Shown: in pieces, positions 52 through 25,323 of the stretch
Layout: each line of letters begins with the position of its first letter
Position numbering within the stretch: the stretch's first letter is position 1
From: Kipferlia bialata
Lineage: Eukaryota
NCBI GenBank assembly: GCA_003568945.1
Contig: BDIP01000075.1
Location: 1 to 33,493, forward strand
DNA length: 33,493 nt
Reading direction: 5' to 3'
Translations under genes and position numbers: made by a program
Notes under the pieces: model-generated
What the model was told of the DNA's origin: nothing
Database searches by the model: none
The model's input: the letters and a program-made list of their open reading frames with translations, nothing else

Positions 52-60
52 CATAGTGTA

Positions 61-3000
61 ATGCTGATACTGACACTGACTGTTGCCATGATGCAGCTGG
101 TGGAACAGGTAACATTTGGCACACCCACACTATACTATCATACTGACACTACTGTTACCCTACTCTGACCCCAGTACTTCTGGATGATACCCTTCCCAGA
201 TGTCGAGGAGACACTTGACCTACTGGTCACTAAGGTACGTGTACGGTGGACATATGTAGTATGGTTATGACATTTAGTATGCATGTATGTGCACTCGTGG
301 TTTGTACCCCCCTGCCTCACCTAGGTCCACATGTCCATCTCTGCCATCGACCCCTCCTCCGTAGATGTGGGGACAGAGACAGTCACGCTGCAGGAGGGAG
401 AGGTACAAATGCACATCCAATATACACATATAGAAGTGGATGTGGTGTTTAGTGTGTCCACTTCTATTCTTTACCCCCAGGCCACTATCGCCCTGGATGG
501 TCTCTCCTTCTCATACTCCTTTGACTGGGAGTATGACGAGATAGGGTGGCCCTACATACACGACGGGGGAACAGGTGCGGAGGAGAGTATTTGCTCTCAT
601 TATCTGGTAATGCTAGAGGAGAGAGCAGGTCTCTCTCTCTCTCTCTCCCTCTGTGACACTCACCCTCCCAGGCACTGTGACTGTCTCAGATGTGTCAGCT
701 AGCGGGGCATTGGACTTCGGTGGGTATCCACAATACATAGTGTAGAGTATTCCATTTTGTTCAGTGTACCAGCCGTACTATTAATTCTACTCTTGGTTCT
801 ATTGTCAGTGTACCTCTGTAGCTGTCACACCCTCAGGCCTTGACACAAAGTGCTCGAGTGTCACAGCAGAGATATCAGACTTCAGGTGCAGTACCCACCT
901 TGTCAGTGTGTCACCATGATGGGCACACGTCTCCCTTGTCTTACATATACATATATATACATATATACACATGTGTATTTGTTCACCCGTCCTCACCCCC
1001 CAGTATGGACCTGGCCGGCAAGATCAAGGTGCATCTCGACGGTGAGTGCAGCAGTCTCTCTAGTTCTCTTTCTCTCTCTTACTCTGTATAGACCATCGCT
1101 GTGTGTAACTATATACACATTCCACCCCCTCTAACACCAAGGTGGTGCCAGTGCCCTTTACAGTGTCATTCTGTCTCTCTCCCTCTCTGTCCTTCTATGT
1201 CTGTATACCCAGCCACCCTAACCCCCAGGTGGTGCCAGTGCCCTGTACAATGTAGTCCTCAACACCCTCCTAGATGTATTGGACTCTGTCTTCACAGCAC
1301 TCTTTGAGGACAACGTGGCAGACATAGTGTCTCTGGCCATAGATGAGGTATGGGGTGTGGTATATTGGTCACATATTCAATTGTATGGGAGTGTGCATTT
1401 GAATATGGTTATCCTACCTCCCTTCCCACCCCAGCAATTTGCGTCGATGACCGACTTCATCCACACCGACATGTACGGGGACTATGTGACAGACTTCAGG
1501 TATATATATTCTGAGTCAGTGCATATATATATGTATATACATATATATATACATATGTATGTACGGGGACTACGTAACAGACTTCAGGTACTGACATAGG
1601 TGGCATATTGACTCTGAGTTAGTATATATACATATATATATACATATATATATACATGTGTATGTACGGGGACTACGTAACAGACTTCAGGTACGTCTAC
1701 CACTCTTTGTATGTCTATGTACATTTGACTTTGAATACTGATAGAGTGTAGAGATCTGGATTCTGAGCGGTTGATTTTAGTCTAAATGAACACTTTGTGG
1801 TCCAGTCATTATCATAGTCGTCTTCCCCTGACTCCAGACTGACTGACACCCCACTAGTGTATGACACCTACCTCGAGCTGTTCATGCATGGCTGGGAGTA
1901 CCCCCTAGATACCTACGATGCACCCCTGGAGGATGTGCCACAGTTCCCAGACACCATCCTGCAGAAGGTAGGGGGATAGTGTCTAACATATAGAGTGTAT
2001 ATTATACACATACAATTTGTGTGTATCGATGTTCAAATCCCCCCCTCTCCCCAGGACATGCAGATCAATATTGTATTATATTTGTCTCTATATACAAATT
2101 GTGTAAATGTATTTAAGCGTATACCTACTGTGACTATGCATAACCCCCAGGACATGCAGGTCAACCTGTCCCTATGAGTATATGAATGTATATTTCTATT
2201 AGTGTATACACACTGTTCATAGTCCTTGACACATTGTGACCCACAGGACATGCAGGTCAGTCTGTCCCGCCATGCCATCAACAGGACATTCACAGTGCAC
2301 ATAGCAGACAACCTGTTCACGGGTGGGTGGTGCATGAGCTGACATGAATGGGTGGTCTTCTATTGAGTAACCCACTGCACTGACTATGGGTCTCACCCCC
2401 AGGCACTGTCAAGCCGTCCAACCTGTCCAATCCCTCCCTGGGTGTACTGCTGACCACTGAGTACTACCAGGCCATAATGCCTAACCTCTATGCTAAGTAC
2501 GGGTGTATGTGTCTCTGCGCAAGAGTGTCCCACTCTTCTACTGTATATGTGATATGTGCGTCCACCTCACCATAGATACCCTGACCGGTCTCTGTCTGCC
2601 ACTCTAACGGCCACAGGGGATTCAGATACGGAGGTGGGGTGTAATGTGTTAATGGTACCAGTGTATATTCGTATACATCGCCGTCGTATTCACACACTCA
2701 CTGTGCAGGTCCTACCCTCCGGCCTCCTTGTTACAGCTGCCGTGTCTGTCACAGTCAGTGTGCTGAGTGAGGGTGGGGAGGAGGTATGGGGTATGCATAT
2801 ATCCACCATACTATCCTATGAATATGGCACTATCTGAACACACCCCACTGACCCCCCTAGATAGCTGAGGCGAGTGTCGTATCCATGAGTGGCACTCTGG
2901 GCATGGCCTGCCAGGTCTCTATCAGCATGGCCAACCACTGGCAGATAGCCACATCGGGGTGGTCCCCATACAACTGGACATTCACCCTCGATAACAGCAA

Positions 3001-3681
3001 GTGAGTCTTGGTATATAGTGTACACCTACAGTTCTTGCCTCCACACCATGCCAACCCCAGATACGACCAGTTTGACCCCAACAACTACATGCTGATGTCC
3101 TCCTATGCGGCACTGGAGCAGTACGGGGTGGCACCCTTCATGGAGTATAGGTATATAGTATAGTGTATGTTATAGTATGTGGTATAGTGTAGTAGAGGGT
3201 ATAGGGTATAGTTTATAGCAGTGGTGCCATATATAGAGTGTGTATGTGATGCTACAGAAGAGTACGGGGCGGCACCCTCCATGGAGTATAGGTGGGTAGT
3301 ATGTCACATATATTGGAGTATGTATTGCAAAGAAGAGTCTTCTAACATTCCTGTATGTAGTGTCACTGCTTGTTGTCCTGTCTCACCTTAGGTTGCACGA
3401 CAACATCAGAATTAGTATGAGTATCGTATTGTATCGGTATCAGCACCAGTAATGTGTAGAACGTGTCTCTTACCCCCCAGGTCCCACTACGATGCCATCA
3501 ATCTGCCCATGTACTCTAGATGCGTGGGGTTCAACGAGGATACAACCATTGTCAGATACCAGGTACAAGTATGAATGCAGTCTAGCTGTATATTGTCATA
3601 TTGTATAAATACACTAACTCTCAGGACGACGCAGCACTCATCGGGTTCGATGTGCAGAAGGTTCCCTACCCTGACTGCTGA
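61..3681 (+). CDS. BPI/LBP/CETP (TULIP) family lipid-binding protein; multi-exon, 5' end uncertain
   Basis: Phase-consistent GT-AG exons splice to YFWMIPFPDVEETLDLLVTK-VHMSISAIDPSSVDVG...ATIALDGLSFSYSFDWEYDEIGWPYIHDGGTGTVTVSDVSASG...KIKVHLDGGASALYNVVLNTLLDVLDSVFTALFEDNVADIV, resembling the BPI N-domain (IPxP motif, W-x-Y beta strand, 'HLDGGAS.LYN' helix). Later exons give DMQVSLSRHAINRTF...IMPNLYAKY (BPI C-domain-like). Stop TGA at 3679-3681. Confidence 0.75.
1559..1696 (+). repeat. Two intronic copies of the exon end + donor site at 1471-1505
   Basis: atgtacggggactacgtaacagacttcag|gtac at 1559 and 1662 vs exonic atgtacggggactatgtgacagacttcag|gtat at 1471. Confidence 0.9.
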
Positions 3682-4080
3682 GTGGCCGTGTCAGACTTGT
3701 TGAGAGAGGAAGAGAGGTCAAAGGAGATTGAGCGATACCAATATAGATACTTCCCAAATGTCATATAGGTCTTATGATGTATGATGTAATTAATGTCAGT
3801 TGCATTCTACATACAGAATTGTGTTACTTGTTGATACCTGGTAGTGTCGGGGATACCGACTCGGGATTGCTGATGGCCTTGCCTCGAAGGAGAATTAGCC
3901 TGAACAGTGCATATTGATACACTCAATTGTTTCATGGCAGGCTGTTCAGCGGTTGTCACTGTACAGATCCCCAACCCGGTATCTTCTGGTCCCTCTCTGA
4001 CCTGTCAAATCCAGCCTCCATATCAACTCGCTGGAACACTAGACCGTCTGAAACAACTACCCACCCACCTTGGCTCTCAG

Positions 4081-5337
4081 GTGGTTCGGAGGCATGAGAT
4101 CCAGCATATGGGATGACATATGCCCTGTGTTCAAAGGACATCCGGTCGGTGAGGAGGGACATGACAGAAACACACAGTGTCTTCCAATCACTCTACCCGC
4201 CCTGTCTACAGCTGACAGAGGACACGTTGAGGGTACGGTACAGTCCACCACGACTGTGACACTGATACTGCGAAGACACTGGGGACTCTCTGTCATACGT
4301 CTGTACACGATGCTTGGTCCCCTATTCCAGTACTCTTCTACACTGCACTTCAGACACGACTCATATCTACCCCTAACCCAAAGCCCACCTGCCTAGACCC
4401 CACGGCCGCAGGTCCCAATCCTCCCTTCACACCAAGGCACACAACTCACATCACACACAGAGGGTGGCGAACGAGAGGCGGAGCAGGTCCTCTCTCTCTG
4501 GTGTGTATATTGAGGGTGGAAGAAATGCGTCTGGGTCCGCCTTAGTGGTGGCCGACCTAACACAGAAGGTACATGAATGATATAGATGTTGTGGTATTAC
4601 ATAGGTGTGCACCGAGACCTCTGTCGCCAAACCACTCTCCTATATGGTGCTACACTGTCGCGGCGAGACTAACCATATTCATCAACTATTGCAATGCCCT
4701 CCATAATTGACGTTCTCATGCTCATTACCTATGACCCTAACCATCAGAACCTGAGACTGTTTGACTCTGCCCCTCCCTGGACCGAGGCAGACTATAACCC
4801 ACTGCCCACCGTACCCCCAGACCCAGATAGGTTCACTCTCCTGCAGCCAAGACACGAGCTGTTCCCCATGTCGGTACGGGTGTATATGATAGTAGAACAC
4901 TCATACTGCAACAATATGGCGGTGACTGAGTAACTAGCACACTACTGAGTGATATACTTGGGGTAAATACAGTGACGTGAAACTGACACTAGCTCCCCAA
5001 GCTAGCCCGGGTGTCCCCCCTAGAGGCATCTATCCAGAGACGCCAGGGGTATGGGGGGACGGGTCAGTATTGGGGCAACGGGACAGCAGGCCTCCTCCGT
5101 CCCCCTCCACCTCGAGGTGCAGATACACTCTGTGACCTATCTCCAATCCCTGAGTACAAGCTGCACCCTGCTGGCAACACCCCTCTGCCCTGTGAGGACT
5201 GGATGAGGAAGCAGAGAGGCAGCCTCGCAATCCCTCCTGCAGATGGCAACGGTACGTTGGCCAGATACTCGTCCGTCGTAGTGTCCTCTCTCTCTCGCGT
5301 TCCTCAACAATGTGGTATTGGAGTAGTACAACAGTAA
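4081..5337 (+). CDS. Hypothetical spliced protein (at least 4 exons; start unresolved)
   Basis: Exons ~4081-4232, ~4384-4568, ~4748-4873 and ~5001-5337 are joined by GT-AG introns with matching phases (1,0,0) and CTAAC/CTGAC branch motifs. No recognisable domain. Confidence 0.45.
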
Positions 5338-6422
5338 GACTTAAACTAAGATCATCTAAGTTAGATCTCTATCTCTTACTCCGCTGCTAATGAAACAGGT
5401 TCTATCATGCGTTCGTGCTCTGAACAACCCACACGCCGTGGAAATAGATGTGGCAGACACAAGAGCAGGTCTCGCAGAGAGCAGTCGCAAGACTACTCAA
5501 ATTGAGTAACTCAATGGACCAGTAGAATTTGACTGAATAATAGTATTGTAATCCTGTCCAAAGTGGTTATGGCTTCCTGATTCACGCAGATAATATATGT
5601 GAGATAAATGTATGTCGCCATGTGTGTTCCACATTCAGACGCGTAAGTATGAGTGACTGACAGATTGAATTGGAAGGATCCAAGGTTACGTTCAGAGTCT
5701 GAATACAATTACGAACACACTGTTGTGCTCAGATGTTCAACACTGATTGTGTAAGTACTACATGTGTATCGTAACCATGAGTCATGCCGCTACGCATGCA
5801 CTGTATAATGCACAGTGTGGAGAAGACTAAACAGTCCAGAGAAGGCATAGTGTCAGAGAGATGCCTTCACCCCGTCCTACCACTCCCACCACCAGCTGTC
5901 CACGTTTAAGACGCCTACCACGCAGCAACTTGACTGCCTTCAGTTTAGTAGGTGTGCTGGGGTACATATCGCTTCGGCTTAGCACCACACTTAGTCGCCA
6001 AGTGCTGAGTCGCTAAGTGGGGACAAGTGTCTCTTCTTGCTAGCCTCAAGTGGCAATGCCAGAGAAACCTGAGCAGCCCATTGCTCTCTCCACCCTCTTG
6101 GCTCAGAGAAAGGCAGGGTCGGTGGCAGACACACCAGCTACAGGTATACAGCAACCAGCGCCTCCTAGGAAAGCGATAGTCGTACTCTTCATATAATGCA
6201 TCAGATCTTCATGTAATCCTGTCGTGTGCTGTATTCAACACGTCAATGTGTTACTGTCGACATGGTCATGCCAAGCGATGTATATGTATTGGCTTTCCTT
6301 ATATCAGCAATACACTCTTCTGACTAACCAGGTGGCGACGCAGGTAATGGACCGTTACTTGGGAACAGTTACACCAGCCAGTGCCATGAGGTAGAGGCCC
6401 TCTCTCACCCTCCCCTGCTTAG

Positions 6423-7064
6423 GAGGGGACGCCGTCTTGTACCCGTGCAGGTGCATGATGTGAAGGCGACCGCTCACTCTGCCTCCTCAGGGTCATGTCT
6501 TCCCCGTCCACCCACACACCCTCGGCCCATACAGATAGGGTCTATCCAGCAGAAGGTATGCTTCATCATACAAGTCATCCTATGGAGGCTCTACTCTTCT
6601 TTACCGGTCAGCTCCCACAGCCCCTTGGACACCCCTCTCTTGTCCCTCCCCAGGGGGTGCGCCCATGTGAAGACATGCCACTACAGGGTTTGGTACTTAG
6701 AGGGGGAGAGAGACTCTCTCAGAGAGACCATGGCATGGAGGGACTGACCAGGGCAGTGAGAGTGGACACCAGCACAGACTCTGTGTCTGTGAGTGTCATG
6801 GGTGACACATCTAGGGAGGGGAGCCCCATGGAGAGTGCCTGCCAGACTAGAACACACGCTGTGTCTGGTATGACCCAGCACTCAGGTACACACAGGCCAA
6901 CCCAACGCATTCCCTGCTACAGAACAACAGACCTCCCACGCCTGGCTCCCACAACACAGAGACACCAGAAGACAAGAGAGAGCCTGGGGTCTCTGGGTGG
7001 GAGTAGAGGTCTCAGGTCCGAGGCATGGAGGCCATGTGCCTCAGGAACAGTGAATACCGAGTAG
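6423..7064 (+). CDS. Hypothetical low-complexity spliced protein, 3' exons
   Basis: Exon ending ...IGSIQQK|gtatgc (~6555) splices in phase 0 to ccccag|GVRPCEDMPLQ..., which is open to TAG at 7064. Upstream exons unclear. Confidence 0.3.
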
Positions 7065-7163
7065 ATATCAAGAATCATGTTATACTCAGAAATCAATTGA
7101 TCAAGAAATTTCGAAATGATGAAACAGATCAATTTTGAAATGTGAAAACAGACCCTCACACTG

Positions 7164-10100
7164 ATGTCCCCTCACTGTATGGAAAGTGATTGTGGTGCAA
7201 TGCAGGCTGACAACCCGGAGCCTGATGCAAGTGTGACCGCTGAGGTCTGTGGAGTGTTAGATACAGACGGGGTGGTATCAGAGGCGGGTACAGCAGGGGA
7301 CATATCTGACCCCCATACACCCGAAGATACGGGTGCCAGTGGAGCTACCACTGACCCGTCGGCCTATATGGGCACACAGAGAGTGCCAACACTGCTGCTA
7401 AGGTATTATGCCGCCGTCTTCAATAGCCTCTGTACTCTCGCAGTTTGTTCCCTGCATTCCATGCACCATACACCATACCCAGCGTGCACTCTGCTGTCAC
7501 TAACCCCAGGGTAGCGTGGCCAAGTGTGATTGGTATGCTTGTGCAGGTAAATGCAGTGTTTATTCTGGTGGTACTGTATGGTGATACTGATTCTAGTATC
7601 ATGTGTTAGTGTATGGATTGCCCATGCTTCAATCGTTGTCACATGAGCTGGGGCAATTACGAATCTGACTCCTACTCTCTTCTATGTCCCTCATGCCAGG
7701 CCCTGTACAACGTGGTGGACTCCATCTTTGTGGCCCAGGGGGTGGGTACAATGGGGGTCGGGGCTCTGGGTATGTGCATGTACCTTTCTCTGTGTGCATG
7801 GATACACCAGTTCTGTAACACTCTATGTATATGACAGTGGTGTGTAGTCTGGTCACATATCCTTCCTATCTTTCTCTCTCTCTGCGTCTCCCTCCGTTCC
7901 TGATATTTCTTTTCACTACATTCTTTTTTCTTCTTCTCTCTCTCTCCCCCCCCCCCTTCTCTTGCTCATGCACAGCTGTGTTCCTCCCCATCGAGGTGAC
8001 TCTGTACGCTGCCATAGGTATGAATCCACATGCATTGTCACACACACACACACAAGTATATATATATTCATTTCTATTTCCCATCTCTACTTCTCTCTCT
8101 GCCCCTCCCCTCATACGCCAGGGAATGTGTTTGGGAGTGGGGCTGCCGCCATGATAGCCAGATCTCTGGGTGCCAATGACACTAAGAGGGCAGAGGTGTG
8201 TGTGTGTATGTGTGTGTATATATCCCTCTACACCCCCCAACCTCTTAGGCTGTGCTGCTCAACATGCTAGTGGCCTGTGCCGCACAGAGCATCATCATCC
8301 CACTGGCATTCCTGCCCTGGTTCAGCACATTCCTCAGGCTCTTTGGTATGCGTCATGTTGCATTCTCCTAGTCATAGTCCCCCTGTAACCCCCAGGTGCC
8401 ACCGATGCCATCCTACCTGGTGCTATAACTACAATGTATGACAATGCATACGTGTACACTCACCCTGCCAGGTGCCACTGATGCCATCCTGCCAGGTGCC
8501 CTGGAGTACGGTCGCATCCTGACAGTGTTTGTGTGTAGGTACGGTGACTATTCAGCTCCATACCCTGTATACACCTCTCTCTTCTCATCTCCTCTACTGT
8601 CATGACCAATGCACAATCATACCCCTGCCTCCCCCCCCAGCTACATGTTTGGCCAGTCCCTGCCCCACATCCTGAGGGCACTGGGCTATGAGAGGCTATC
8701 CATGCAGATGGTAGTGGGTATGTGATCAATACAATGTAATAGTCATATAGTGTATGGTGGAGCCAGTGCCCTTGATGTTGTGTTCTGCCCCCCCCTCCTC
8801 CCCTCACCCCCAGCCTCTGCTTGTATCAACATGGTCATCGACCCCTTACTCATCTTTGGGTTTGACATGGGTATCAGTGGGGCAGCCATCAGTACAGTGG
8901 TGGCACAGACAGTGCCAGGTATGTGTATGTACATACTAATATGATACTGGATATCCTATGTATCTGTATCCACCCCCCCACCCCAGCTGTGCTTGCCATT
9001 CTGTTCCTCATGAAGGAGACGCAGCCAGTCAGGATAAGGTGGGGCAGGGAGTATACGTACGTATAGGGTGGTGTATACGTTGTGTATGCACATGTACAGT
9101 GTATGTAGCGCTGGAGGAGTCACGATCAGATGGGAACTACCTGTGACATTGATGGGAGTGCACATCAGTTCTATCACTTGTGTTTAGCAGCGTCAGTGAT
9201 GTCTCTCTGACCCTAGGTTTGACAGAGACATTGACTTTGCCATCATGAGACGCTTCCTGGGACTAGGTGAGTCAGTCACATGGTCTGTTGTCCCTGAGTG
9301 TTTGACTATTTGTATATGTATTGTCTATATGTGTTATTCCCTCTCACCTCAGGCTTCCCCCAGATGGGCCAGCAGTCCTCCCAGGCACTGCCCGTGGTAC
9401 TAGGTGGGTGTGATACAGTGCATGTGTATTCTCAAATCATATATGTGTCCCTTATGCGTAATGTAACCCCAGGCAACGCCCTCATCAAGCACTTTGCCGA
9501 CCCCGCTGATGTAGACACACTCATTGTGGTGTTCAGCGGCATCCTCCAGCGGTGCGTCCACTCAATATCAACATAATACTTATCTCTATATTACTCTGTA
9601 GAGCCATGCGCATGTGAGTGCATCACGTGTTTTCATATGACACAACAATTTGAATTCCTCCCCCCCCAGCTACCTCGCTCTCCTCATCCCCCCCCCATCA
9701 TCGCTCTTACATTATATATATAGTATATGTAGTATTGCTATATCTATATATTACTGTATACCTCATTCCAAGGTACCTCGCCCTCCTCATCTTGCCCATC
9801 ATCGGTATGACAGCCGGGTATCTACCCGTGGCCAGTTACAACCTGGGGGCCAAGAACTACCACCGCTTCATGCGCGTAGTACTGTATGGCCTGTTGTTCA
9901 GCGGCTCCATAGCAACTGTGGGGTGGTTAGGTAGGGGTATATGGCTGCAGATAACAGTCATGTTGTCATCCAAGTTCTGTTTCCAGAAGGGATATCCATC
10001 GTTGAGCACCATCTGCCTATATATATATATATATATAGATATATAGGCAAAGTATATCCTATCCTGACCCCCAGGCACCCTCCTCGCCCCTGCCCTCATT

Positions 10101-10923
10101 GTACAGGTACTGGGTGGAGACGACCCTGCCCTGACCGATCTGGGCGTGTCTGTCATGAGGCACTGGTGCTACGGGTTCCTACTGGTGTGCTTCCCATACG
10201 TGGCAGCAGCCACATTCCAGGTGGGGATACTATGTATGCATATGTATACTACAGTGTCGTTGCTACCTGTCTCACCGCAGGCCCAGTCCCAGGCCCTCCT
10301 GGCCACAGCAGTGGCCCTTGCCAGACAGGTATGCAAGGGGTAGACAGATGCATATGCTTGCCTATCTCTCTCCCATTCTGTCAATCTCCCTCTCTCCCTC
10401 TCTCTATCTCTCTATCTCTCCCCCTGACCCCCCAGATGCTCATCATGCTGCCAACCATGGCCATCATGCCCATGATCACAGGGTGGGTGGATGTATATGT
10501 GTACAATATGAGTATCTATATGGCTATCTATAGGGAATACATCAGCCGTCACCCACATGCCCATGATCGCTGAGTGGATGTATACATATGGCTGTACTCA
10601 TCACTCATAGGATCAGCTCCACACATTGTCCCTCCCCTCATCCCAGCAACATTGAGTCGATGTTCTACGCTGGCACTGTGAGTGATGTGTGTGCTGCTGT
10701 CTCATCGATGCTGCTGATGGGGTGGTATGTGTACAGGCCCCTGGTGCCCCTGCTGGCAGAGGAGAAGAGGGAGAGAGAGGAGGCAGAGGGGGCAGACGCC
10801 CTGGAGAGCCAGTGTAACGCAGAGACACCAGAGGGAGAGGGAGAGGGAGAGAGTGTAGTGGAGACACTCGCCGTACCCACCTGTGGGGAGGGAGAGGTAG
10901 CCGTTGAGGTGGCAGATGAGTGA
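7164..10923 (+). CDS. MATE family multidrug/toxin efflux transporter (MepA/DinF-like), multi-exon
   Basis: Spliced translation: LLRVAWPSVIGMLVQALYNVVDSIFVAQGVGTMGVGAL...FGSGAAAMIARSLGANDTKRAE...FGATDAILPGALEYGRIL...SACINMVIDPLLIFGFDMGISGAAISTVVAQ...GYLPVASYNLGAKNYHR...RQMLIMLP. These are hallmark motifs of both MATE repeats. Acidic N- and C-terminal tails; stop at 10921-10923. Confidence 0.93.
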
Positions 10924-11150: not shown

Positions 11151-14100
11151 ATGGAATCCCACACCGATGAGCACATTGATCCCATTCCCATCTCTTCTAC
11201 TTCCACACAGACACATATGGTATCCTGCAGCACTGTGTCGTCTGGTGTTGTGGGCGGTGGCAGCTCCTTCCACTCCCTGACCCCACCCCCCGTGTGTCAG
11301 CTGACAGAGGACACATGGTGTGTGGTGGTATTGGTTATATGCATTATTAGTATCATACCATATACATATAGTCTGATGCCAGGTTTGCCTGTGGTCTCCT
11401 GGTGGCCAACCCAGGCACGCCAGAGGCTAGTGTGCAGGCACTGTCCCTGACACCTGAGGGAGGTAGGGGGGGGATAGTGGGAGAGGGTAGATACTATCGA
11501 TATGCACGTCTCGTCTGTTCACACTGATGACAATGTCATTAATCATAGATCGTCCACACGGGTACTCCACCTCTGTCTCATGGTATACTCTGTCTATGTG
11601 TGTCTACGTGTCTGTTTATGTGTCTCTGTCTGCACTGACCCCCTAGACCACTGCCAAAGGCATCTATCTCTCTCTGTCTCTCTCTCTCTCTCTCTCTGTC
11701 TCTGTGTCAGTCTGCCCTGACTCCCAGACAAGTCCCCCTTTGCCAGAGAGGTGGGCTGCTTCAACTCTGTGGATGCAGTGCAGACCCTCCCCCCCTCCTC
11801 CATTGGACCCAGGCTCATGGTGATGGGGAGCCTCGTGTACCAGGTGAGTATCTATTCCAGGTATATATACACAGTATACACAGTACACACATGATACATG
11901 TACCAGATAGGGGTGGACAGGCAGTGATTCATACTGATGGTGATGGGGAGCATGGTGTACTAGGTGAGGGCTGGACAGGCAGTGGTGTTCCTAGCAGTAG
12001 TCTCCCCCCCCCTCTCTGACCCCTCAGGTGGACGGGTACTCCAGCACATGCTCCAAGGCAACATGCATACTTCAGTTCAAGGCCCTCCCCGACTCTCCCT
12101 CCCTCTCCCCCTGTGTGTCTCTGTCCATCCTCAGGTGTCAGTGTCTGTATTTGTATATGTATCAGTGATACATATCTATAGGTATATATACTGATCCTGA
12201 CACTGACCCTCAGGGCATGGAGGCAGGGGGAGTGGGGCAACGGCATGGAGTACAAGGGGGTGCTAGGTAGGGTGCATATTTTTACACACACACACACACA
12301 TATATATATATACATAAACATATAATGCATATCACGAGGGTACTCTAGTGATGTTGGCAAGGCTAAGGATATATACAGTATCACCTCTCCTCCCATACCC
12401 CTTCCATTGACCCCCAGGTGACGGACGTCTGCTCCTCAAGGTGTCCCATGGGCCTGGTCTCATGATAGCCCCTACATCCCTGCTAGACAAGGCTGTGATG
12501 TCACAGGAGGAACTGCAGAGGTGTGGATATGATATACACAACTGCTTTGTTTACAGATTAGTAGGCTTCTAGTGCTGGCTACCTCATCTTACCCCAGTGC
12601 CCTCGCTGACCCTGCCTATACACATATATATTTGTATATTGAACGAGAGTCTCTAGTACAGTGTATTGTATAGTATTGGGTTCCCTGACCCCAGTGCCCT
12701 TGCCGACCCTGGCCACATCCACCAGAGCCTGGTCATGACAGAGGAGTACTCAGAGACAGTGCCGGAGGAGGTATGGCATGGATGTACTTCTACACACCTA
12801 CTCGGAGTCAGTCGTGTGTACATGTATCCCATAGTCTTACCCCTTAGGACCGGTATGTCTCCACACCACACTTCATTACTTCACATAGATGCCTATATCA
12901 CCTCACCTCAGTGCCGGCCTGTCTCTGTGGACTATGACCCTGAGTATAGGATGGATGACATCCGGCTGACTGCTCTGCCAGGGTGGGACCTGGTGGCTAC
13001 ACCCAACGTGTGCCTGGCACTCAGGTGGGGGCCCCATTTTCATTATTGATACTGATACTGATACTGATACTACATCTATCCGTGTGGCTGTATATGTATG
13101 TGTGTGTGGTTCTACTGCCTGGTTACCCTCTCTCACCATAGACACGGATCCACCAAGCCCGTGACCCTGACCCTTGTGGACAAGGCAGACGGGGCAGACA
13201 TCAACACCCCACCCCTGTTCTCCCTCCTGACCGACCCCTCCTCCCCCACCCCCACCCACCTCCTGCCTCTATACAAGACAGGTACCCTGGTGACACCCAT
13301 CCCCATTCCCACTGTGCTCTCTGCACTGGAGGGTGACATGGACGTGGACCCAGTCTGCATAGAGGTAGAGACAACACCCACCTCCTTCGGGGAGACCAGG
13401 GTGGTGGCTGGTGACATGGTCATAGCAGCCAGTGACAAGGTGGGACCGGGTATACTGAACTATCTCAATCATCTGTACGTTGATGTCATTTCCTATGTCT
13501 TACCCTGTAGGCCTCCCCACCCACCCCCTTCTTCTCCTCTGCTCTCGATGAGGCCAAGGCAACCTTCACCAGGTGTATGGCAGAGCAGGGTGTAGAGGCA
13601 GACAACCTCAAGGAGTACCCCAGGGCATTAGGTGATATGATCAGCATGACATTAGTGAAGATCTCTGTTCGCTCATCTTCCCTCTCCTTCTGACCCCAGG
13701 CTACTCGTTCCTGTCCGACTCCGTCCTCCCCCTCCCCACCCCCTGCTACCAGACGGTGGCTGCCATACACGTCAGTGGGAAGGGGCTGACTCTGCTGTGC
13801 TCGGTGGGCAGTGACACTCAGGTGGGACTGCTATTCTGTCTGTACTGACCAGTGCAGCATCTGCTAAACCCTATCCTTTATCCTACCCTGATCCCAGGTT
13901 GCCCTCACCCTGACTAGGGACGAGGTCACAGCTGGCACTGTACCACTGGGTGAGGCATGTGACATGGCCGCACTGGCTAGGCTCACCCAGGTATACATAT
14001 ATAGATATGTTTTTGTATACTGTATACTGACGGCTCATTATGCCCTGACCCCCCAGTTCTCCCAGTACACCGCCCCTCCCTTCGGCTCCTCTAGTGACAA

Positions 14101-15896
14101 CGGCGTGACACCTGTGGTGAAGTGTACGTTATGCTTAGGGTAACTGTTAGTATAAGGCGGCTTACCACTATACCACACCCCTCTCTAACTCTAGTAAGCA
14201 AGTTCATTCAGGAGCTATATCCAGATATACTATTGTGTCTATGACTGGTACTCACATCTATCTTACCTGTCTGAACCTGCCTCATCCCATCTTTTACCCT
14301 TGTATATCTCTAACTATATATACATATATATACGTATACTCCTCTGACCCTAGTAGGCAAGTTCATCCAGGAGGCCATGCCGGCCAAGATGGACGTGTAC
14401 AAGATCACACACGCGCCCAAGTACTACAGGTATACTATCCACATATATATATGCATAGTACTAAATTTTTATTCCGATATATACCGACGCACCCAAGTGC
14501 TACATGTACTCTAGATTGACGTATTCATATATGTACTTTAGCAACCAATGCCACCAAGCACTACAGGATGCTATATATACCGGTACTAATACCACAGGAT
14601 CCGCTATGTCCTTGTGGGTGACAAGACAGGGGAGGGAGAGGACCCCCTCTCCGCTGTGCCCATGGGTCTGAGACACCCAGACATCGAAGTCATAGAGGAG
14701 GCAAGGTAAGGGGACGAGGCTGCGTGTAGTAACTATAGCATAACTGTCCGTCCCGTCTCACCCCAGGCTGGGCGACATGATAGGTGCCCCCATCTGGAAG
14801 GGTGGCAAGAGCAACCCCATGAACGTGGAGAGCGGGTTTGTTGTGGGGTTCTCCGATGGAAGAAGGGACGGGGGAGCAAGGTGGGTGTAGCTGTACCTTT
14901 TGGGTACATATGATTGTTCATAGCTAGTATCCTTGTGCCTCTACCCCCCCCCCTCACCGTAGGGTTGGTACTCAGCGCAGAGGCTCCTCCGGCCTAGGGG
15001 GTGCACTGGGGTGGGGCACTGACTGGGCCGGTGTCCCTGTGCTGGTGTCCCTCCCCAACAACAAGCAGGTTGGAGAGCAGGCCCCCAAGGCAGAGTATGA
15101 CTGGAACGCGGGTACTATCAAGGCAGCCGGCCTCACCCACCCCCTACCCTACAGAGGGTTTGAGGTGGTCAAGGAGAAGGGGTGGGGGGGAGCACCAACC
15201 GTGGACCTAATCATGACAGACCCAGGTAGTGGCAGCGATATGTATGCGCATAGATATGCACTGTATAGTGTATAGCCGTTCCACTGACCCCCAGCCTATG
15301 ACGACAGTGACAGCTGCCCCCTCATCACTGACGCAGCCACTGGCAGGTGGAACACATACGCCAGACCAGGCGACGGCTGTTGCTACGCTGAGACCATCGC
15401 CCTGCACGAGTCGGTGCCTGTACCCGAGTCGGAGGACGACCTGTTCAAGCGCTTGACTCCCATAGAGGGTGTCAACGCCCGTGAGTACACCCAGTCTGGC
15501 ACTGTAGGGGAGGCTGGTGAGCTAGAGGGGGTGGGCAAGTGGATGCAGTTTGCCTTCGGGGTGGGTGTCGACACAAACCGGGCAGGGTACTTCACCAAGC
15601 ACCTCTTTAAGAAGAAGGACTTTGTGTCCGTGGCTGGCCTAGGGGAGAGTGGCCCCGAGGCATTCATCTTCGACGAGGAGTACCACGGGGGTGTGGGCTG
15701 GGAGAGCGTCACAGGGTTTGAGCCCGAGGCCCCTGTGCCTGGCGGGTGGTTCTCTGACTCGGGGTGGGGGGACGGGTGCTACTTCTCCTTTGTGCTGAGG
15801 GACGGGAGGGGCAAGGCAGTCGGGGCCAGGATTCTCTACGTCCAGGAGCCAGAGCCTGAGGCAGAGGCAGAGGGAGAGGGGACTGCCGACAAGTGA
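11151..15896 (+). CDS. Large multi-exon protein with C-terminal DUF4241-like domain
   Basis: About 16 phase-consistent exons. The last two give IMTDPAYDD...ATGRWNTY...FGVGVDTNRAGYF...FSDSGWGDGCYFSFVLRDGRGKAVGARI, matching the DUF4241 signature (GVDxG...SGWGDGxY...D..G..V). The N-terminal part is unrecognised. Confidence 0.6.
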
Positions 15897-16165
15897 GACC
15901 TCTGTCTCGTTTAGCTTAGGACAGTGTGCTTGATGGGTTCATACAAGAGAGCCACCTACCGTACTGACAACTAGATAATTCCGATTAGGGAACGCAGACG
16001 ATATATTTACTATTACGAATAGATTGCGACAAGGCTGAACACTGAATCGAAGAGGAATGGTGAAGAGAGACCCGGATGACTCCAGTGGACTCCTGAGTGT
16101 GGACTCCACACTGTGGTGTGAAGCATGAAAGTCCCAACCCCACGTCAATGGTGTGAACACTGGTA

Positions 16166-16557: not shown

Positions 16558-16596
<39 letters not shown>

Positions 16597-17419
16597 GGAG
16601 AATTATGCACACATGAAGGTTCGAAGAGAATTACTCTAGAGAAATACAATATCAGGAGCGAAAGGAAGGAACATTCAGGATATAGAGGGAGTATAACATG
16701 GGCACCAACCTTGGCCAGGATGCTCTTCTCCCTGGCACTGCCCTCGGGGTCTCTCTCAATGCCAACCTGGGGTGGGGAGGGGCATATAGACAGCTAAGAA
16801 GGTGTGTCTGGAGAAGCCAGAAGACTCTGTAGAATCCCTAATAGTCTGTACTGGGATATCAAGCGCTGATTCAGATAGTGGTATCTAGGAATGCATCCAC
16901 CCCCACCTTGAGCATATCCACTATGTCCTGCACAGTTGCCATGGCTAACTGTCTTGCTAGGATGTAGGCCTTCAACTGAAGGGTAAGGAGGGAGAGAAAA
17001 GCAAACACGGAGGAATACTATACATTGATAAATACGGATAGATAGTCAAAGAGACAGAGAGGGGTGGGTTGGTGATACATACATACTGCAAACACGTAGT
17101 CTATATACGCTACATATACAACAGTTGTCCCCACCCCGTCCTTGCTCATGTTCTTCTCCCTGCCATACTCCTTAGACTGCCAGTCCAGATGCTCCTTGGC
17201 AATGTTGTAGCCCTTGCGGGCCTGAGTGAGAGATAACGGGAGAGAGAGAGAATGGAGAGACAGGCGTCTGAGGCACAAACCAGGTGAATCTCCGTACCAG
17301 GTTCCTGCGCCGTCTGTTCTCCTGGGCCTCCTCAATGTCCATGGCAAGGTCCATCTCTCTGGGGTGAGAGAGATATAGATAGGGGGGGGGGGGGGGGGGG
17401 GAAGGGAGGGAGAGAGAGA

Positions 17420-17458
<39 letters not shown>

Positions 17459-17713
17459 CTGTCTGAGAAAGAATAAGAGATACACTATTCTGTGGACATT
17501 GGGACCATACAATAGGACACAGCAGCTCAGAAATATATACATACATTGGCGACAGAATACACACAACTGACAATGCTCACCTAGCATCTCTGCGTACTGG
17601 CTGAAGCTGAGGGCTGTGACGTAGAACAGCTCTGGGGTGCCAGAGGCAGAGGACGCATACACACCCAGGGCCATGCCGCAACAGTGCTGCAGGAGGAGAG
17701 GGTCGGAACCTGG

Positions 17714-17747
<34 letters not shown>

Positions 17748-20700
17748 CTCGAAGCCTGGGTAAGAGAGAAGAGCACAAGATGAACTAAAAGCAAAGGTGT
17801 GTATACGCACCGCATGCTGTGAATACTGACTGCATCTTGAGGATGGCGGCCTCTGCCACCTCCACCCCAGTGCCCATGACCCACTCTCTGTCCTCGCCCT
17901 CCAGCTCCACACCTGCCTGTGTGACACAGGGCAGGAACGAGAGCGTGGAGGTGGGGGAGTAGGGCTCCACTCCACCCAGGGCAAGGGGGGAGAGGGGGGT
18001 CACCTGGGTGTAAGAACTCATCCACATCATATATTGGGAACTGACTGATGAAGGTGGGAGCTATATGATACTGAAGTACATACCTTGCAAGAAGCAATGG
18101 GACCGGTAGATGCAAGGGAGTGCACCAGCATGGGAAGTCCAAAGAACTTGGCGCGCTTCTCAGTCTTGTCACCAACCGTGTGGGACTGCAGGGCTGGCTT
18201 GGGCATGGACACAACTGTGTGGCCCTGGTACTTGGGGTTCTGCAGCATCCTGAGGGTCAGAGATAAACTCGATCGGAACACCACAATCCTGTCAATAGGA
18301 CACATACACACAAATGCATAAATATGTCCAAGTACACCATATGCATACTTACCTAAGGAATGCCTCTGGGACAGGGGACGCCATGCCGAGACCAGACCCA
18401 CCGGCATAGGAAGAGCTGATGGATAAGAGGGGTGATGGAGGAACACTACATAGAGTTCTGGTACATGCATATATATCCCATGTCCTACCTGCTGAAGAAG
18501 GGCTTGACTGTGAAGGAGGGTGTGAGCAGCAGCCACTCCCTCTCTGTGTTGGGGGGCACAGACTGGATGTGTACGGCTAGCTCACCTGGGTGTAAGCGAT
18601 ACATACAGAGAGAGTGTGGGTAATTACTACATACCCAGCTCGAGCGGCAGTGTGAATGCCTTGACTGTGTCGTTGGCTACAAGGTGGGACAGCAAAGGGG
18701 GGGCAAGGATCTCGCCGATGAAGGGAAGGTGGGTCACCTTGAGGTGAGACATATACACGACTATGTAGTAGGAATGTAGTAGGCATGTGTATCTTGTACT
18801 ATCCGTACCTTGGGGTACATGCCCCCTGCCTGGGAGGCACCCATGGGGAGGGAGTAGTCAACACTGGTGCTCTCACCCAGTACAACTGCCTCGACAGAAG
18901 GGGAGGCATGGGCGGCAAGGGACAGACTGGGAGTAAGGCGGTGGGGAACATCTACATACACTACCTACCCACACAATCCATAAGGAACTCACCCCTCGTT
19001 AGCAGATATGATGAGCCTCTCGAGGTCACTGCCAGCCAGGCACTTGATGGGGCCAGAGGAAGCACTGTCAGCTGGGGGTGGGTATCGAGTAATTAATAAT
19101 TGAGATAAACATACCGCGTAGTAAACCCCACCTGTGTCCTCGAGTGTCATCTGTGTCTCCAGCTTCCAGTTGGAGCTGGTCTTATACTGCATCGTGTTCT
19201 CTCTCAGGAACCTGGAGGCTGGGAGCAGATCCCTGCCTGCATGGTAAGGTTAGGATGAAAGAGAGCAAAAGGTTATGATTCATTAGAGGTAAGGAGGAGT
19301 TATTATGGATATGCGAATAGGATTCGTGAATATTCAAGAAACGTACCATACATTCCACAGAGCAGCTGCTTTCCCTTGAGCTGTCCGATAGACATGGCGC
19401 AGAAGCAGAACCTAAGGTCAGACTGATAACATGTATCAAAGATACAATACAATCTTCATACACAAAGACTATACACTCCCACCTGTCAATCTTGAAGGTG
19501 ACTCCCTTTGCAGTGTCAAAGATAATACAATATACATGTCCAGACTATCATTGATTTGATGTCCAGACTATATAGTCCCACCTGTCAATCTTGATGGTGT
19601 CTCCCTTTGCAATGTCTCTAATGGGCCACATCAGAGGCAGGAAGCCGTCTCCCACATAGAACAGAGCGGCCATCATGTTGGGCCTATGATAAGAGGGATT
19701 GATACTATAAAGACATTGTGTTCTGAATAATACGTAAGGAACACACACGTGTTATTACACACACACACCACTCACCTCTCACTGCCTGATGTGGTTGGGC
19801 TCTGATGGGCCATGGCAAACTCCTAGGGGTGAGGGTACATATTTAGGAAGACAGAGTAGTATGAAACATGCTTAAGGATAAATGGGCTAAGAATACCCAC
19901 ATGTATACACACACACATATATATATATATATATATTGTGTTTAAGAGAGAGAGAGCTATACCTGAGGAGGCAGCACTGAGATGGTTGTGGTCTCTCCCT
20001 CTGCCGTCTGGATCTCAGCAGACAGGACACGGCGCCAGAGCTCAGTTGTGACACTGGATGTAAGAGAGAGAGAAGAAGAAGGAAGAGAGAGAGAGGGGTT
20101 GTATAGGACACGGTGCCACAGCTGGGTGGTGACCCAGGTGTGAGACCAATAGGGATACATATTACTATACTCATATATCAGAGGGCTCATAGAAGAAATA
20201 CACAAAATGTACAACAGAGATTGATACGTATGAGAAATACCCACCTTGTGTGTGTGCCCTCTGGGATGGTCTCTGGCTTGAAGGGCACACAGGTGGCCTG
20301 CTTGTTGATGGCTGTGAGGCGGGGACATCTGGGGTGAGGATGTATGATACATCGTAATTCATACTATTTACTTATAGTATATATATACCCACCTCTCCAC
20401 CACCACCCTGGTCTCCACTGGGAAGAAGTCGGGGTACAGCACCTGGGATAAACAAAAACTTCCACTGTTGTGTTTGACACATATTGAGATAATTAATGTA
20501 CTCTCTCACCTCCTTGAGCTTAGGAAGGGATGTAGTGTTGTTGAGGAGGGCGAGTGCCCTCTCCCCGACCTCCTCTCCTGTGCTAGTGAGGGACATGCCC
20601 AGCCACCCAGCAAGGGCAGAGACGTACTCTGTCTGGGGTGAGGTAACACTGCTATATAGACTTGTATGTACAAATAGAGACATGCCCAGCCACCCAGCAA

Positions 20701-22582
20701 GGGCAGATATGTACTCTGTCTGGGTTGAGGGATATAATACATACAGAGAGCAACTGATACCCCGCTAAGGGCGATATATACCATATGTACCCACCTGTGT
20801 CTGGGCTGGGAGTCTGAGGTCGATGGTGTCCACCTGAGGATGAGTGGTGCCAATCATGTAGAGTATTCAGCATGTCTCGAATGAACATGGAGGTCTATCT
20901 AACTCTCTCTATCTCCATTATATATATATAAACTTGTACATACCTGTGAGGGTGGCAGCATGGGGCAGGGTGCAAGGGAGGCACGAAGTGTGGTGATCAT
21001 GCCTGGAGTAAGATGGAGATACCACATATTGGGACAGTAAATGGAGACGCCGATCTCCTGATATGGAATGGGAAACTGTAACTGTAACTTATGGAGGGCA
21101 CCTGATATGGACTCGAACTCTCCTCTCTCCTCGAGGGCCAGGCCGTTCAGAGAGGGGCACACTGGGGTGAGAGGGAGAGAGGGACAGTATGATGTTGTTA
21201 GGGTATGTCTCTCTGACGCACCCAGCCTGAGTGCCTCTACGGCCTCTCATTCTGGTAATGCATATATGTGATATATATATGCTACATGTATGATTGATGC
21301 ATGATTGATGTATGATTATAAGTAGCACTTACCAAGCCTGAGTGCTTCGATGGCCTCCCTCCTGTTCTTGAGCACAAGGGCTGGTGTGAGACATGATGAT
21401 AATACAACACATATGTTGATTTAGGGAGGAAGAGAGATGACGACTGTTCTTTAGTACAAGGGCTGGGGTGAGACATTATATATATACAATTCTACATACC
21501 CAAGTAGAGAGACCGAAAATGTCCATGCAAGGACAGTCTCTGGGGAAGGATCCGAATATATATTACATATACACACATATATATATAGAGAGAGATACCG
21601 TGCCTAGGGGTGTGTCTGACAGGTCCATGTCACACAGAGAGGTCAGGGGTGCAATAAAGCGGCACAGGGACTGCACAGAGGAGATGGGGTTGGAGGACAG
21701 ATCGATGGAGAGCAGGCTGGGGTGAGAAACGCAAGTTACACTGTAACGGCATCGCGTAGAAACAACACTCACTTGTCAAACACCCTGCTGAGGTCGACTG
21801 CGGGTAGGTCCTGGACACACCTCCCGTGAAGGTCGAGGGAGCTGCCGCCTGATGGGTTAGTAATATGTCTATGTGTGTATTAATGCAGTGTAAGTGGGTG
21901 TATAGAAATGGCGTACCTGGCTCGAATCTCTGTGCATCAAGGATGTCTGCCACACAGAGTGTGTGGGTGGGGAGCTCGGTGGGCATCTTGCGCATGACAG
22001 AGGAGTAGCTGGGAGTCAGGCAAAGAATGCCCAATTATAAGAAAGCTTTATGAAACCCTAACCACTACTATATGCAAGTATACACTCGTGCTGTCTCTCT
22101 CACCTTGGCTCGTACTCTGCGTCACTCATGTCAGTGGTGGAGTCAACACCTGGGGTGAGAAGGGGAGTATGTACAGAGGTATACACAATCTGTTATAGAC
22201 TCTAGCGACTCGTACCCTCTGCCAGGATGGCTCCGTCTGTGAGGGGTGTGTTGTCAGAGTATCTGGGTGTCTGGTACACACAGAGTACATCGGCCAGACG
22301 GTCAAGGACCTGCAGAGTGAGGGGGAGACCGACACTTTGAAGAGAGAGAGAGTGAGTGATTATTCATATATTTTACATACCTTCTGATCCTCGAGTGTCT
22401 CAGCCACACTCCCAGGGGTGAGGTCACCTACGGGTGAGTATAGAGGATAATACTATACATATTTTGAAATAGACACAAATAAGTTATGATAGTGTGTATA
22501 CACGCACCATAGAACACTGGGACGTCCATGAACACTGTGCTCAGCTTCTTGAGGGGAGAGGTGGCAAGGGACACAGGGCCCT
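16166..22582 (-). CDS. TTLL12-like protein: LRR region + SET-like domain + degenerate tubulin-tyrosine-ligase-like region; 5' end unresolved
   Basis: Minus-strand exons encode LRRs (LLSIDLSSNPISSV..LTSLCDMDLSDTPL; CPRLTAINKQ cap). They also encode EFAMAHQ...PNMMAALFYVGDGFLPLMWPIRDIAKGDTIKID, resembling the TTLL12 SET-like segment (APLFY...LLWPLRDL..GEEVTRD), and VTHLPFIGEIL. The last exon GIKPWDEDAGAALHALQYQ* ends at 16166. Confidence 0.6.
17382..17458. repeat. Poly-G / (GA)n tract in intron (polypyrimidine on the gene strand)
   Basis: Two long G runs separated by GA repeats. Confidence 0.9.
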
Positions 22583-22810
22583 GGGATGAGGGGTGCTAAG
22601 AACACCGGGTATATATACGTATATAGACACAGTAGAGAGATAAGAAATATAGAGCTTGGAGAGGTGGCAAGGGACACAGGGCTCTGGGGGGTGAGGGTAT
22701 TATAGAGATACAGTATGGGGAGATAGTGTTATTCGGAGGCATGGAGTGGAAGTAAGTGAGGAATGAGGGGGGGGGGGGGGGGGGGGGGGGAAAACAAGGG
22801 AGAGAGAGAG

Positions 22811-25323
22811 TATCTGTGCCCACAGCCACCTGGGTGCGCCTGGGAGGGTAAGAGAGGAAGAGAGAAGAAAGTGCATGGGAGAGAGAGTTGAAGAAAGAGA
22901 GAGAACATGCAAGGGAGAGAGAGAGAGTATGGTAGAGAGAGCGAGAGAGTACCCATGTGTACCTGAGTGGGTTGAATGCCGTGCAGTGCACCTCTGCATT
23001 GACAGACAGGGTGCGGAGGGCCCTGTCCCTAGGGGTAAGAGGTATGTATATATATATAGAGAGAGAGACAGAGAGAGAGAGAGAGACAGGGTGCGGAGGG
23101 CCCTGTCCCTAGGGGTGAGGTATATTATATATATATATATATGGAGAGAGAGAGAGAGAGAGAGAGACAGGATGCGGAGTGACCTGTCCCTAGGGGTGAG
23201 AGAAAGCATATCCATACATATTGTGTGAGAAAGTGTGTGTGTGTGTGTGTGTGTACTGTATACCTCCCGATGTCCCAGATCTTGACGCTCTTGTCATATG
23301 AGCCAGATGCCATGAGTCTCACCAGACGGGTGGAGTGGGCACTGCCTAGAGAGTAAGAGAGAGAGGAGGGGAGAGAGAGAGAAAGAGAGGGGTTATGAGT
23401 CTGACAAGGCGGGTGGAGTGGGCACTGCCTAGAGAGTCAGAAATAGACAAGACGTACATATTTACACAGCATAGTACAGTATATAGTATATATATATATA
23501 TCATACACTACCTGGCCTAGTCCCCGACTTGTCCCTCCCCCCACTCAGCATCTCCATGGCCTCCTCGTCTCTCTCCCTGTCCCTATCGGCCTGGGTGGCA
23601 GCTGCGGGTGAGGTCTATGCACATATGTTTGTATATATTGAGAAAGAGAGAAAAAGTATGTACTTTCTCCCTGTCGGCCTGGGTGGCTGCTGGGAGAGAG
23701 AGAGAGAGATAGAGAGAGAAAGTACTTAACTAATAGTATACAATGAGCACACATACCTAGCCCTGCCTGACTGGCTGTTGCATTGAGGGCAGCCACGACA
23801 GAGTCAGCTGGGGGGTGAGTATAACACCCAGACTAAGAGAGAGACGGTCCCTAACTGAGTACACACCTAGCCCCGTAGAGAGAGAGAGTTTGTGTGTGGT
23901 AGTGGGGATATTTTTAACTGTACAGTACACACCTAGTCCCGTTGACCCCTGGTTGGGCAGTGGCTGCAGAGTGACAGAGGACACAGTGTCTGGGGGTGAG
24001 AGGGAGAGAGAGAGAGAGAGAGTGACAGAGGACACAGTGTCTGGGGGTGAGAGGGAGAGAGANNNNNNNNNNNNNNNNNNNNNNNNNNNNNNNNNNNNNN
24101 NNNNNNNNNNNNNNNNNNNNNNNNNNNNNNNNNNNNNNNNNNNNNNNNNNNNNNNNNNNNNNNNNNNNNNNNNNNNNNNNNNNNNNNNNNNNNNNNNNNN
24201 NNNNNNNNNNNNNNNNNNNNNNNNNNNNNNNNNNNNNNNNNNNNNNNNNNNNNNNNNNNNNNNNNNNNNNNNNNNNNNNNNNNNNNNNNNNNNNNNNNNN
24301 NNNNNNNNNNNNNNNNNNNNNNNNNNNNNNNNNNNNNNNNNNNNNNNNNNNNNNNNNNNNNNNNNNNNNNNNNNNNNNNNNNNNNNNNNNNNNNNNNNNN
24401 NNNNNNNNNNNNNNNNNNNNNNNNNNNNNNNNNNNNNNNNNNNNNNNNNNNNNNNNNNNNNNNNNNNNNNNNNNNNNNNNNNNNNNNNNNNNNNNNNNNN
24501 NNNNNNNNNNNNNNNNNNNNNNNNNNNNNNNNNNNNNNNNNNNNNNNNNNNNNNNNNNNNNNNNNNNNNNNNNNNNNNNNNNNNNNNNNNNNNNNNNNNN
24601 NNNNNNNNNNNNNNNNNNNNNNNNNNNNNNNNNNNNNNNNNNNNNNNNNNNNNNNNNNNNNNNNNNNNNNNNNNNNNNNNNNNNNNNNNNNNNNNNNNNN
24701 NNNNNNNNNNNNNNNNNNNNNNNNNNNNNNNNNNNNNNNNNNNNNNNNNNNNNNNNNNNNNNNNNNNNNNNNNNNNNNNNNNNNNNNNNNNNNNNNNNNN
24801 NNNNNNNNNNNNNNNNNNNNNNNNNNNNNNNNNNNNNNNNNNNNNNNNNNNNNNNNNNNNNNNNNNNNNNNNNNNNNNNNNNNNNNNNNNNNNNNNNNNN
24901 NNNNNNNNNNNNNNNNNNNNNNNNNNNNNNNNNNNNNNNNNNNNNNNNNNNNNNNNNNNNNNNNNNNNNNNNNNNNNNNNNNNNNNNNNNNNNNNNNNNN
25001 NNNNNNNNNNNNNNNNNNNNTCTATATACGTCTATGTTCCCCTTTGCTGTGCCTGCTATGAACATGGCCACAGGGGTCGGGGTGGTGTCAGGGAACAGGG
25101 CAGAGGCTGGAGGTGAATGACTCAACTACACGATAATGTATGAAACTACGCGGTGTCGCACCTACACGCTTGATCTCCTGGTGGGGCACTGCCTCTAGGC
25201 ACTGCACCGGGTGGGAGAGAGAGAGCGGCATGGCGAGGGAGAGAGGGGGGTGCCTAAACTTGGCGGACAGGACCTGGTTGAAACCAACCACTGGCTGGGA
25301 CTCGTGGCCTGACATAAGGGTGT

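What the first reader, a model, noticed from the sequence alone, without database searches (positions are those of the whole stretch)
1131..24062. Pervasive 'splice-junction echoes': introns contain copies of their own splice site plus flanking exon
Seen: about 20 introns in five unrelated genes, on both strands, contain a second (sometimes third) copy of a splice site together with ~15-45 nt of the adjacent exon. Acceptor echoes lie upstream of the real acceptor (e.g. 1142 vs 1229; 2055/2151 vs 2247; 8396 vs 8472; 9670 vs 9773; ~12598 vs ~12694; ~14196 vs ~14357; minus strand ~20135, ~20720, ~21462, ~22683, ~23110/23190, 23428, ~23690, ~24040). Donor echoes lie downstream of the real donor (1559/1662; ~3260; ~10556; ~11934; ~14487; minus ~19480, ~23865). 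Spacing is ~50-190 nt, mostly ~75-120. The spacer between copies is usually dissimilar AT/TA/GA-rich sequence, so only the junction-spanning part is recognisably duplicated. I saw none in RPL37 or EF-2. Inference: a recurrent mechanism targeted at exon-intron boundaries is remodelling introns (e.g. homology-directed repair or strand slippage at microsatellite-rich introns, or splice-linked insertion with long target duplications). It could relate to how this lineage built its very high intron density. I know of no description of this pattern, but have not searched the literature.
Basis: partly seen in the sequence, partly recalled or inferred. Interest (0 to 1): 0.9.

Follow-up and report, generated by a model that had tools for sequence, protein, structure and literature searches.

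The report
Duplicated splice junctions inside Kipferlia introns
In this stretch of the protist Kipferlia bialata, about one intron in six carries a skipped second copy of its own splice junction plus a short piece of the neighbouring exon, likely scars of imprecise DNA repair copied from an already diverged partner chromosome.

Summary
The echoes are real. In Kipferlia bialata, 19 of 110 curated introns, plus one truncated intron, hold a copy of their own splice site and 17-44 nt of adjacent exon, 76-159 nt away. Exon segments 30-60 nt from junctions gave 0 of 162. Single DNA contigs span both copies for 16 of 20 events, and RNA uses the outer site in 9 of 9 testable introns. Echoes lengthen existing introns (median 184 vs 80 nt); none creates one.

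Both copies look as if they diverged under selection. Echo-versus-exon dS/dN is 4-5, where copy-then-decay allows at most 2 (P 0.005-0.03). Echo splice sites differ in sequence but score like real ones. Intron-side homology fades after about 12-20 nt.

Best reading (inferred, 0.5): junction-spanning duplications left when recombination copied from a diverged homologue and ended by end-joining. The junction bias then follows from selection and from exons being the only alignable sequence. The donor haplotype was not found, and donor-side echoes alone show no synonymous excess. The pattern did not appear in 10 literature searches.

The parts
1142..1166 (+). acceptor echo (25 exon nt; real exon starts 1229; offset 87)
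   Evidence: one DNA contig spans both copies
1559..1587 (+). donor echo 1 of exon end 1471-1499 (offset 88)
   Evidence: not bridged by a listed contig
1662..1690 (+). donor echo 2, identical to echo 1 over 29 nt
2055..2067 (+). second, shorter acceptor echo of the exon starting 2247
2151..2172 (+). acceptor echo (real exon starts 2247; offset 96); contains AG|GT
   Evidence: DNA contig
3261..3291 (+). donor echo of exon end 3120-3150 (offset 141)
   Evidence: DNA contig
8396..8423 (+). acceptor echo in the MATE gene (real exon starts 8472); 3 of 3 differences synonymous
   Evidence: DNA contig
9670..9688 (+). acceptor echo (real exon starts 9773; offset 103)
   Evidence: two overlapping contigs
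10556..10573 (+). donor echo of exon end 10465-10482 (offset 91)
   Evidence: DNA contig
11934..11963 (+). donor echo of exon end 11814-11843 (offset 120)
   Evidence: RNA joint skips 184 nt; DNA contig
12598..12614 (+). acceptor echo (real exon starts 12695; offset 97)
   Evidence: RNA record offsets; DNA contig
14195..14214 (+). acceptor echo (real exon starts 14354; offset 159)
   Evidence: DNA contig
14487..14505 (+). donor echo of exon end 14411-14429 (offset 76)
   Evidence: DNA contig
19483..19517 (-). donor echo of exon end 19582-19616; intron side clearly homologous; 3 of 3 differences nonsynonymous
   Evidence: RNA joint skips 170 nt; DNA contig
20105..20134 (-). acceptor echo (real exon starts 20053); its AG is lost
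   Evidence: RNA joint skips 191 nt; DNA contig
20676..20719 (-). acceptor echo, the longest (44 nt; real exon starts 20632)
   Evidence: RNA joint skips 162 nt; DNA contig
   Evidence: RNA joint skips 171 nt; DNA contig
21444..21462 (-). acceptor echo inside the GC-AG intron 21603-21381
22658..22683 (-). acceptor echo (real exon starts 22580); 5' end of the intron lost at an apparent mis-join
23081..23108 (-). acceptor echo (real exon starts 23028), nearly identical, spacer homologous: youngest verified type
   Evidence: not bridged by one contig (identical run longer than 31 nt)
23162..23189 (-). second, more diverged acceptor echo of the same exon
23395..23428 (-). acceptor echo (real exon starts 23345); 3 of 3 differences synonymous
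   Evidence: DNA contig collinear over 420 nt (record 5)
23668..23689 (-). acceptor echo (real exon starts 23601)
   Evidence: RNA piece ends at the outer acceptor
23858..23876 (-). weak donor echo (13 exon nt plus intron start)
   Evidence: one search hit; p=0.055
24022..24062 (-). identical acceptor copy beside the scaffold gap; unverified
   Evidence: no contig bridges it

Best explanation
Each echo is a head-to-tail duplication across one existing splice junction that the major transcript skips, and it likely arose when homologous recombination copied from an already diverged allele or homeologue and then ended by microhomology end-joining instead of annealing. Shown: the structure in DNA, use of the outer site in RNA, lengthening of introns, and a pattern of divergence that spares coding and splice-signal positions in both copies. 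Inferred steps: (1) a break in an intron is repaired from a homologue whose exons still match (~90%) but whose intron has largely diverged; (2) synthesis crosses the intron and 17-44 nt of the next exon, too little or too mismatched to anneal; (3) polymerase-theta-type joining fuses it to the resident intron remnant, placing two working versions of one junction in tandem; (4) selection keeps only events with one junction and a short exon piece, which the spliceosome ignores (exon-definition-like choice of outer sites); (5) the echo then decays.
For: Sd 30.5, Nd 21.5 over 521 nt in 20 events; dS 0.24-0.29, dN 0.056-0.06, dS/dN 4.1-5.2, against at most 2 if an identical copy simply decayed (P 0.005-0.031 for kappa 1-4). 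Seven of 18 events with two or more differences are all-synonymous (null 2.2, P 0.003); acceptor echoes are 22 of 31 synonymous (P 0.001). Echo acceptors score 9.9 bits against 10.1 for real ones; the half-decay null is 6.3 (0 of 4000 simulations reach it). Echo donors score 5.96 against 5.96; null 2.9 (P 0.0095). The free branch-point base differs in 7 of 13 while T-n-A is kept in 11 of 13, AG in 12 of 13 and GT in 7 of 7. Intron ends are homologous (acceptor nt 7-12: 48 of 78 identical against 0.37 for random pairs) but fall to background by about 20 nt. The intron minus the offset has ordinary length (P 0.69). No duplications were seen in 4.9 kb of unannotated DNA (3.9 expected, P 0.02). 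Literature: metamonads lack NHEJ, and fornicates lack Rad51A and have two Dmc1 paralogues (PMC8516963 section 8). K. bialata has PolQ, Spo11 and five Rad52 entries (its supplement). Dmc1 tolerates mismatches (PMC8682777 abstract). Recombination that cannot anneal ends by microhomology joining (PMC5104497 abstract). k-mer peaks suggest diploidy (PMC5874029 passage).
Against: No donor haplotype was found. Protein searches for two echo-rich genes and EF-2 returned only the window's own protein and one 52% paralogue, and no close relative was in the metagenomes. The laid contigs listed no other letters, but I used a 95% likeness cut and contigs drop variants. Donor echoes alone show no synonymous excess (8.5 of 21, P 0.57). 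A codon-position-only test gives P 0.063 and the conservative-substitution test P 0.086. Two events have two or more differences that are all nonsynonymous (3151 and 19581), and the events at 19581 and 23029 fit in-place copying. Spacers are never under 43 nt (0 of 20000 simulations), which random break positions do not predict. Microhomology at the joints could not be tested. One window only.
Confidence: 0.5

Rival explanations
1. Ordinary in-place tandem duplication (slippage, staggered nicks or sister-templated repair) makes identical copies. Selection leaves junction-spanning ones, and very fast slippage in the microsatellite-rich introns erases the intron part.
For: The youngest events have homologous spacers with microsatellite length change (23029 p=0.005, 19581 p=0.009; combined P 5e-4 over 21). 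The two echoes at 1559 and 1662 are identical while their spacers already differ by indels. Donor echoes fit the neutral ratio. A few intron-only repeats exist.
Against: It caps dS/dN at 2, and the observed value is 4-5. It cannot explain why invariant splice bases stay while adjacent free bases differ in 7 of 13 (P 3e-4) and 12 of 28 (P 3e-5). None was seen in unannotated DNA.
Confidence: 0.25
2. Echoes arose in place but stay under selection in cis: as minor alternative or nested splice sites, or as a backup that gives a working gene when the repeat contracts by single-strand annealing.
For: This would also keep splice strength and reading frame. The echo acceptor scores above the real one in 6 of 13.
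Against: RNA contigs show only outer-site use, 9 of 9. The offset is a multiple of 3 in 9 of 20, and only 2 of 20 allow a protein-neutral second route. One echo has a stop codon and one has lost its AG. Contraction load is second-order selection (inference).
Confidence: 0.12
3. A splicing- or RNA-linked process (transcript- or cDNA-templated repair, or reverse splicing) inserts an unrelated intron end and duplicates only exon sequence at the junction.
For: Spacers are nearly intron-sized (median 65 vs 80 nt) and mostly unalignable. RNA-templated repair has been proposed for a related fornicate (PMC8516963 passages).
Against: The intron ends of the two copies are more alike than random introns, and all 3 real TAG acceptors have TAG echoes. 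It predicts dS/dN of 2. A spliced template carries no intron end.
Confidence: 0.08
4. Assembly artefact: two haplotypes stitched in tandem.
For: The draft is short-read. The window has a gap and at least one apparent mis-join. The DNA run may be the source of the assembly.
Against: Separately built contigs with depth 430-490 and no differences run through echo, spacer and real site for 16 of 20 events. The echo-to-spacer joint sequence would exist in neither haplotype. Only the identical pair at 23971-24062 remains open.
Confidence: 0.03

Closest known systems
Human F7 intron 7 minisatellite (PMC1557585; abstract seen)
   Same: A repeat unit spans an exon-intron boundary and leaves silent but functional donor pseudo-sites; the most upstream donor is used.
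   Different: One locus with many 37-bp units and identical pseudo-sites. Here there are 2-3 copies at about one intron in six, on both donor and acceptor sides, with diverged intron parts and a selection signature in both copies.
Intron gain by tandem genomic duplication (Rogers model; PMC3265369 abstract; PMC4974935 passages)
   Same: A local tandem duplication inside a gene leaves the protein unchanged.
   Different: There the duplicated segment is exonic with AG|GT and makes a new intron. Here it spans an existing junction, no intron is gained, and AG|GT occurs in 2 of 20.
Internal gene duplication, Gao and Lynch 2009 (not held; seen only as cited in PMC4974935)
   Same: Internal duplications are common and can include intron sequence.
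   Different: As cited, they copy exon segments or whole introns. I could not check whether single-junction copies are described there.
[quoted passage not shown]
   Same: Copying from a donor that ends by microhomology joining, without classical NHEJ.
   Different: A reporter assay with kilobase tracts from the sister chromatid; here the tracts would be about 100 nt from a diverged homologue (inferred).
Engineered duplicated 3' splice sites (wt14 minigene; PMC1450099 passages)
   Same: A proximal acceptor followed by a short exon piece without a donor is largely skipped for the distal site.
   Different: An artificial mammalian substrate; here a natural, repeated arrangement in a short-intron protist.
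Introner elements (PMC9860276; passages)
   Same: Both are recurrent events that shape intron sequence.
   Different: Introners are families of similar inserts that create introns. The spacers here form no family within the window. Kipferlia is not named in the main text; supplements were not checked.

Membership tests
Tandem-duplication intron gain (Rogers/Hellsten) | Duplicated segment is exonic and holds AG|GT | tested here: not met
   All span an existing junction; AG|GT in 2 of 20
Tandem-duplication intron gain (Rogers/Hellsten) | A new intron is spliced between the copies | tested here: not met
   Outer sites used in 9 of 9 RNA-testable introns; the two AG|GT cases had no displayed RNA joint
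Whole-exon tandem duplication / mutually exclusive exons | Both ends of the exon are copied | tested here: not met
   Copy covers at most 52% of the exon and 44 nt; 0 of 162 distal segments
Introner / transposon insertion with target-site duplication | Inserts form a family of similar sequences | tested here: inconclusive
   No family within the window; genome not held
Introner / transposon insertion with target-site duplication | Short target duplication (a few nt; recalled) around an unrelated insert | tested here: not met
   17-44 exon nt plus homologous intron ends
F7-type junction-spanning minisatellite | Repeat unit crosses the junction; inner pseudo-sites are silent | tested here: met
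F7-type junction-spanning minisatellite | Array of many near-identical units | tested here: not met
   2-3 copies; spacer homology significant in 3 of 21
In-place (identical-copy) small tandem duplication | Echo decays neutrally: dS/dN at most 2 and splice signals erode | tested here: not met
   dS/dN 4-5; splice scores kept; donor subset alone is compatible
Homologue-templated recombination ended by end-joining | Two copies pre-diverged under purifying selection | tested here: met
   modest n, carried mainly by acceptor echoes
Homologue-templated recombination ended by end-joining | Donor haplotype carries the echo's letters in its working exon | not testable with these tools
   No second allele or close relative found
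Homologue-templated recombination ended by end-joining | Microhomology or templated insertion at the new joint | tested here: inconclusive
   By eye only: short CT-repeat overlap in the youngest cases; parental intron unknown

The most novel reading that the evidence does not exclude
Kipferlia introns are a fossil record of recombination between homologues about 20-25% diverged at synonymous sites. A Dmc1-only, NHEJ-less repair system pairs them through exon islands and often finishes by end-joining, stacking two allelic versions of a junction in tandem. This would be a genome-wide engine of intron lengthening and sequence replacement, indirect evidence of inter-homologue exchange in a metamonad, and thousands of natural splice-site competition experiments showing exon-definition-like choice in a short-intron protist.
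Probability: 0.42. Interest if true: 0.86.

Novelty: new variant of a known kind. Interest (0 to 1): 0.72.

Why it matters
(1) Intron length: 18 of the 26 introns of 150 nt or more are echo introns, so this one process explains most long introns in the window. (2) If the window is typical (untested), a genome reported to have 124,912 introns (PMC5874029 passage) would hold on the order of 20,000 echoes. (3) Neither sex nor parasex has been observed in metamonads (PMC8516963 passage); echoes would let past exchange between diverged homologues be measured from a single genome. (4) Equally strong inner splice sites are ignored, so the rule for splice-site choice in a reduced spliceosome becomes directly testable. 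(5) Echoes mislead gene predictors: my own model twice read them as micro-exons.

Tried and rejected
- No whole genome is held, so there was no genome-wide test.
- The metagenome scan with EF-2 gave 32 loci at 42-61% identity and no close relative; they were not used.
- Protein searches found no near-identical second copy. This is weak evidence for the two searches limited to longer proteins.
- No run is on record as RNA. X2 is a guessed RNA run, but it shows GT-AG joints. RNA cover for the genes at 1-3681 and 7179-10923 was not among the displayed joints.
- Contigs cannot show minor isoforms or heterozygosity.
- The earlier-findings look-up was empty.
- Gao and Lynch 2009 was not held.
- Pfam on single exons confirmed MatE and a WD40 fragment and gave a weak SET_TTL hit. 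It gave nothing for the first gene (the BPI/LBP-like label is my recall) or for the last gene.
- Rejected: the hit at 21101-21003 as an echo; recursive splicing (only 2 of 13 acceptor echoes begin with GT); whole-exon duplication; intron gain; haplotype stitching.
- The conservative-substitution test was not significant.
- Ten literature searches listed no description of this pattern. Subscription papers and most supplements were not searchable.
Full report
Source and annotation. The window's EF-2 is identical to a protein labelled Kipferlia bialata on a 33,493-nt contig; the next full-length relatives are about 65% identical. No whole genome was available. I built a gene model and curated it by hand to 110 complete introns with open frames. 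The model is well supported. Gene C (11151-15896) is identical to the database protein P0121, 892 of 892 residues. The LRR/TTL-like part matches P0123 at 787 of 787 residues. Two spliced contigs of run X2 map to the models with a constant offset at 5 of 5 and 7 of 7 listed pieces.

Noticed in passing
window 22755-22802: Apparent scaffold mis-join at a poly-G run. RNA contigs of the genes on both sides continue into sequence that is not in the window, yet the database protein P0123 (1734 aa) fuses them, together with the gene beyond the N gap.
   Followed up: partly
window 21381-21603 (minus strand): A GC-AG intron, supported by frame, RNA length and the database protein.
   Followed up: yes
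window 11621-11646 and 16496-16510: Copies of the intron's acceptor end with little or no recognisable exon part; possibly older or truncated echoes.
   Followed up: partly
window 17710-17757, 12848-12865, 9120-9145, 14540-14570: Weak, probably decayed echoes below the significance threshold, seen by eye or at marginal p.
   Followed up: partly
window 3151-3260: Spacer built from degenerate repeats of the junction-proximal hexamer, suggesting slippage seeded at the donor.
   Followed up: no
window 17380-17460: Long C/G runs inside an intron; the database protein places 6 extra residues here. Possible local mis-assembly.
   Followed up: no
window 3682-7178: 3.5 kb without a convincing gene model, with a few low-depth X2 pieces and no local duplications.
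   Followed up: no
window 11151-15896: An 892-aa protein with no Pfam family above cut-off. The only relative found is a 52% identical Kipferlia paralogue.
   Followed up: partly
all introns: The branch motif CTNAY sits only 6-10 nt from the intron end (T-n-A in 83 of 91 echo-free introns), so branch point and acceptor are nearly fused.
   Followed up: partly
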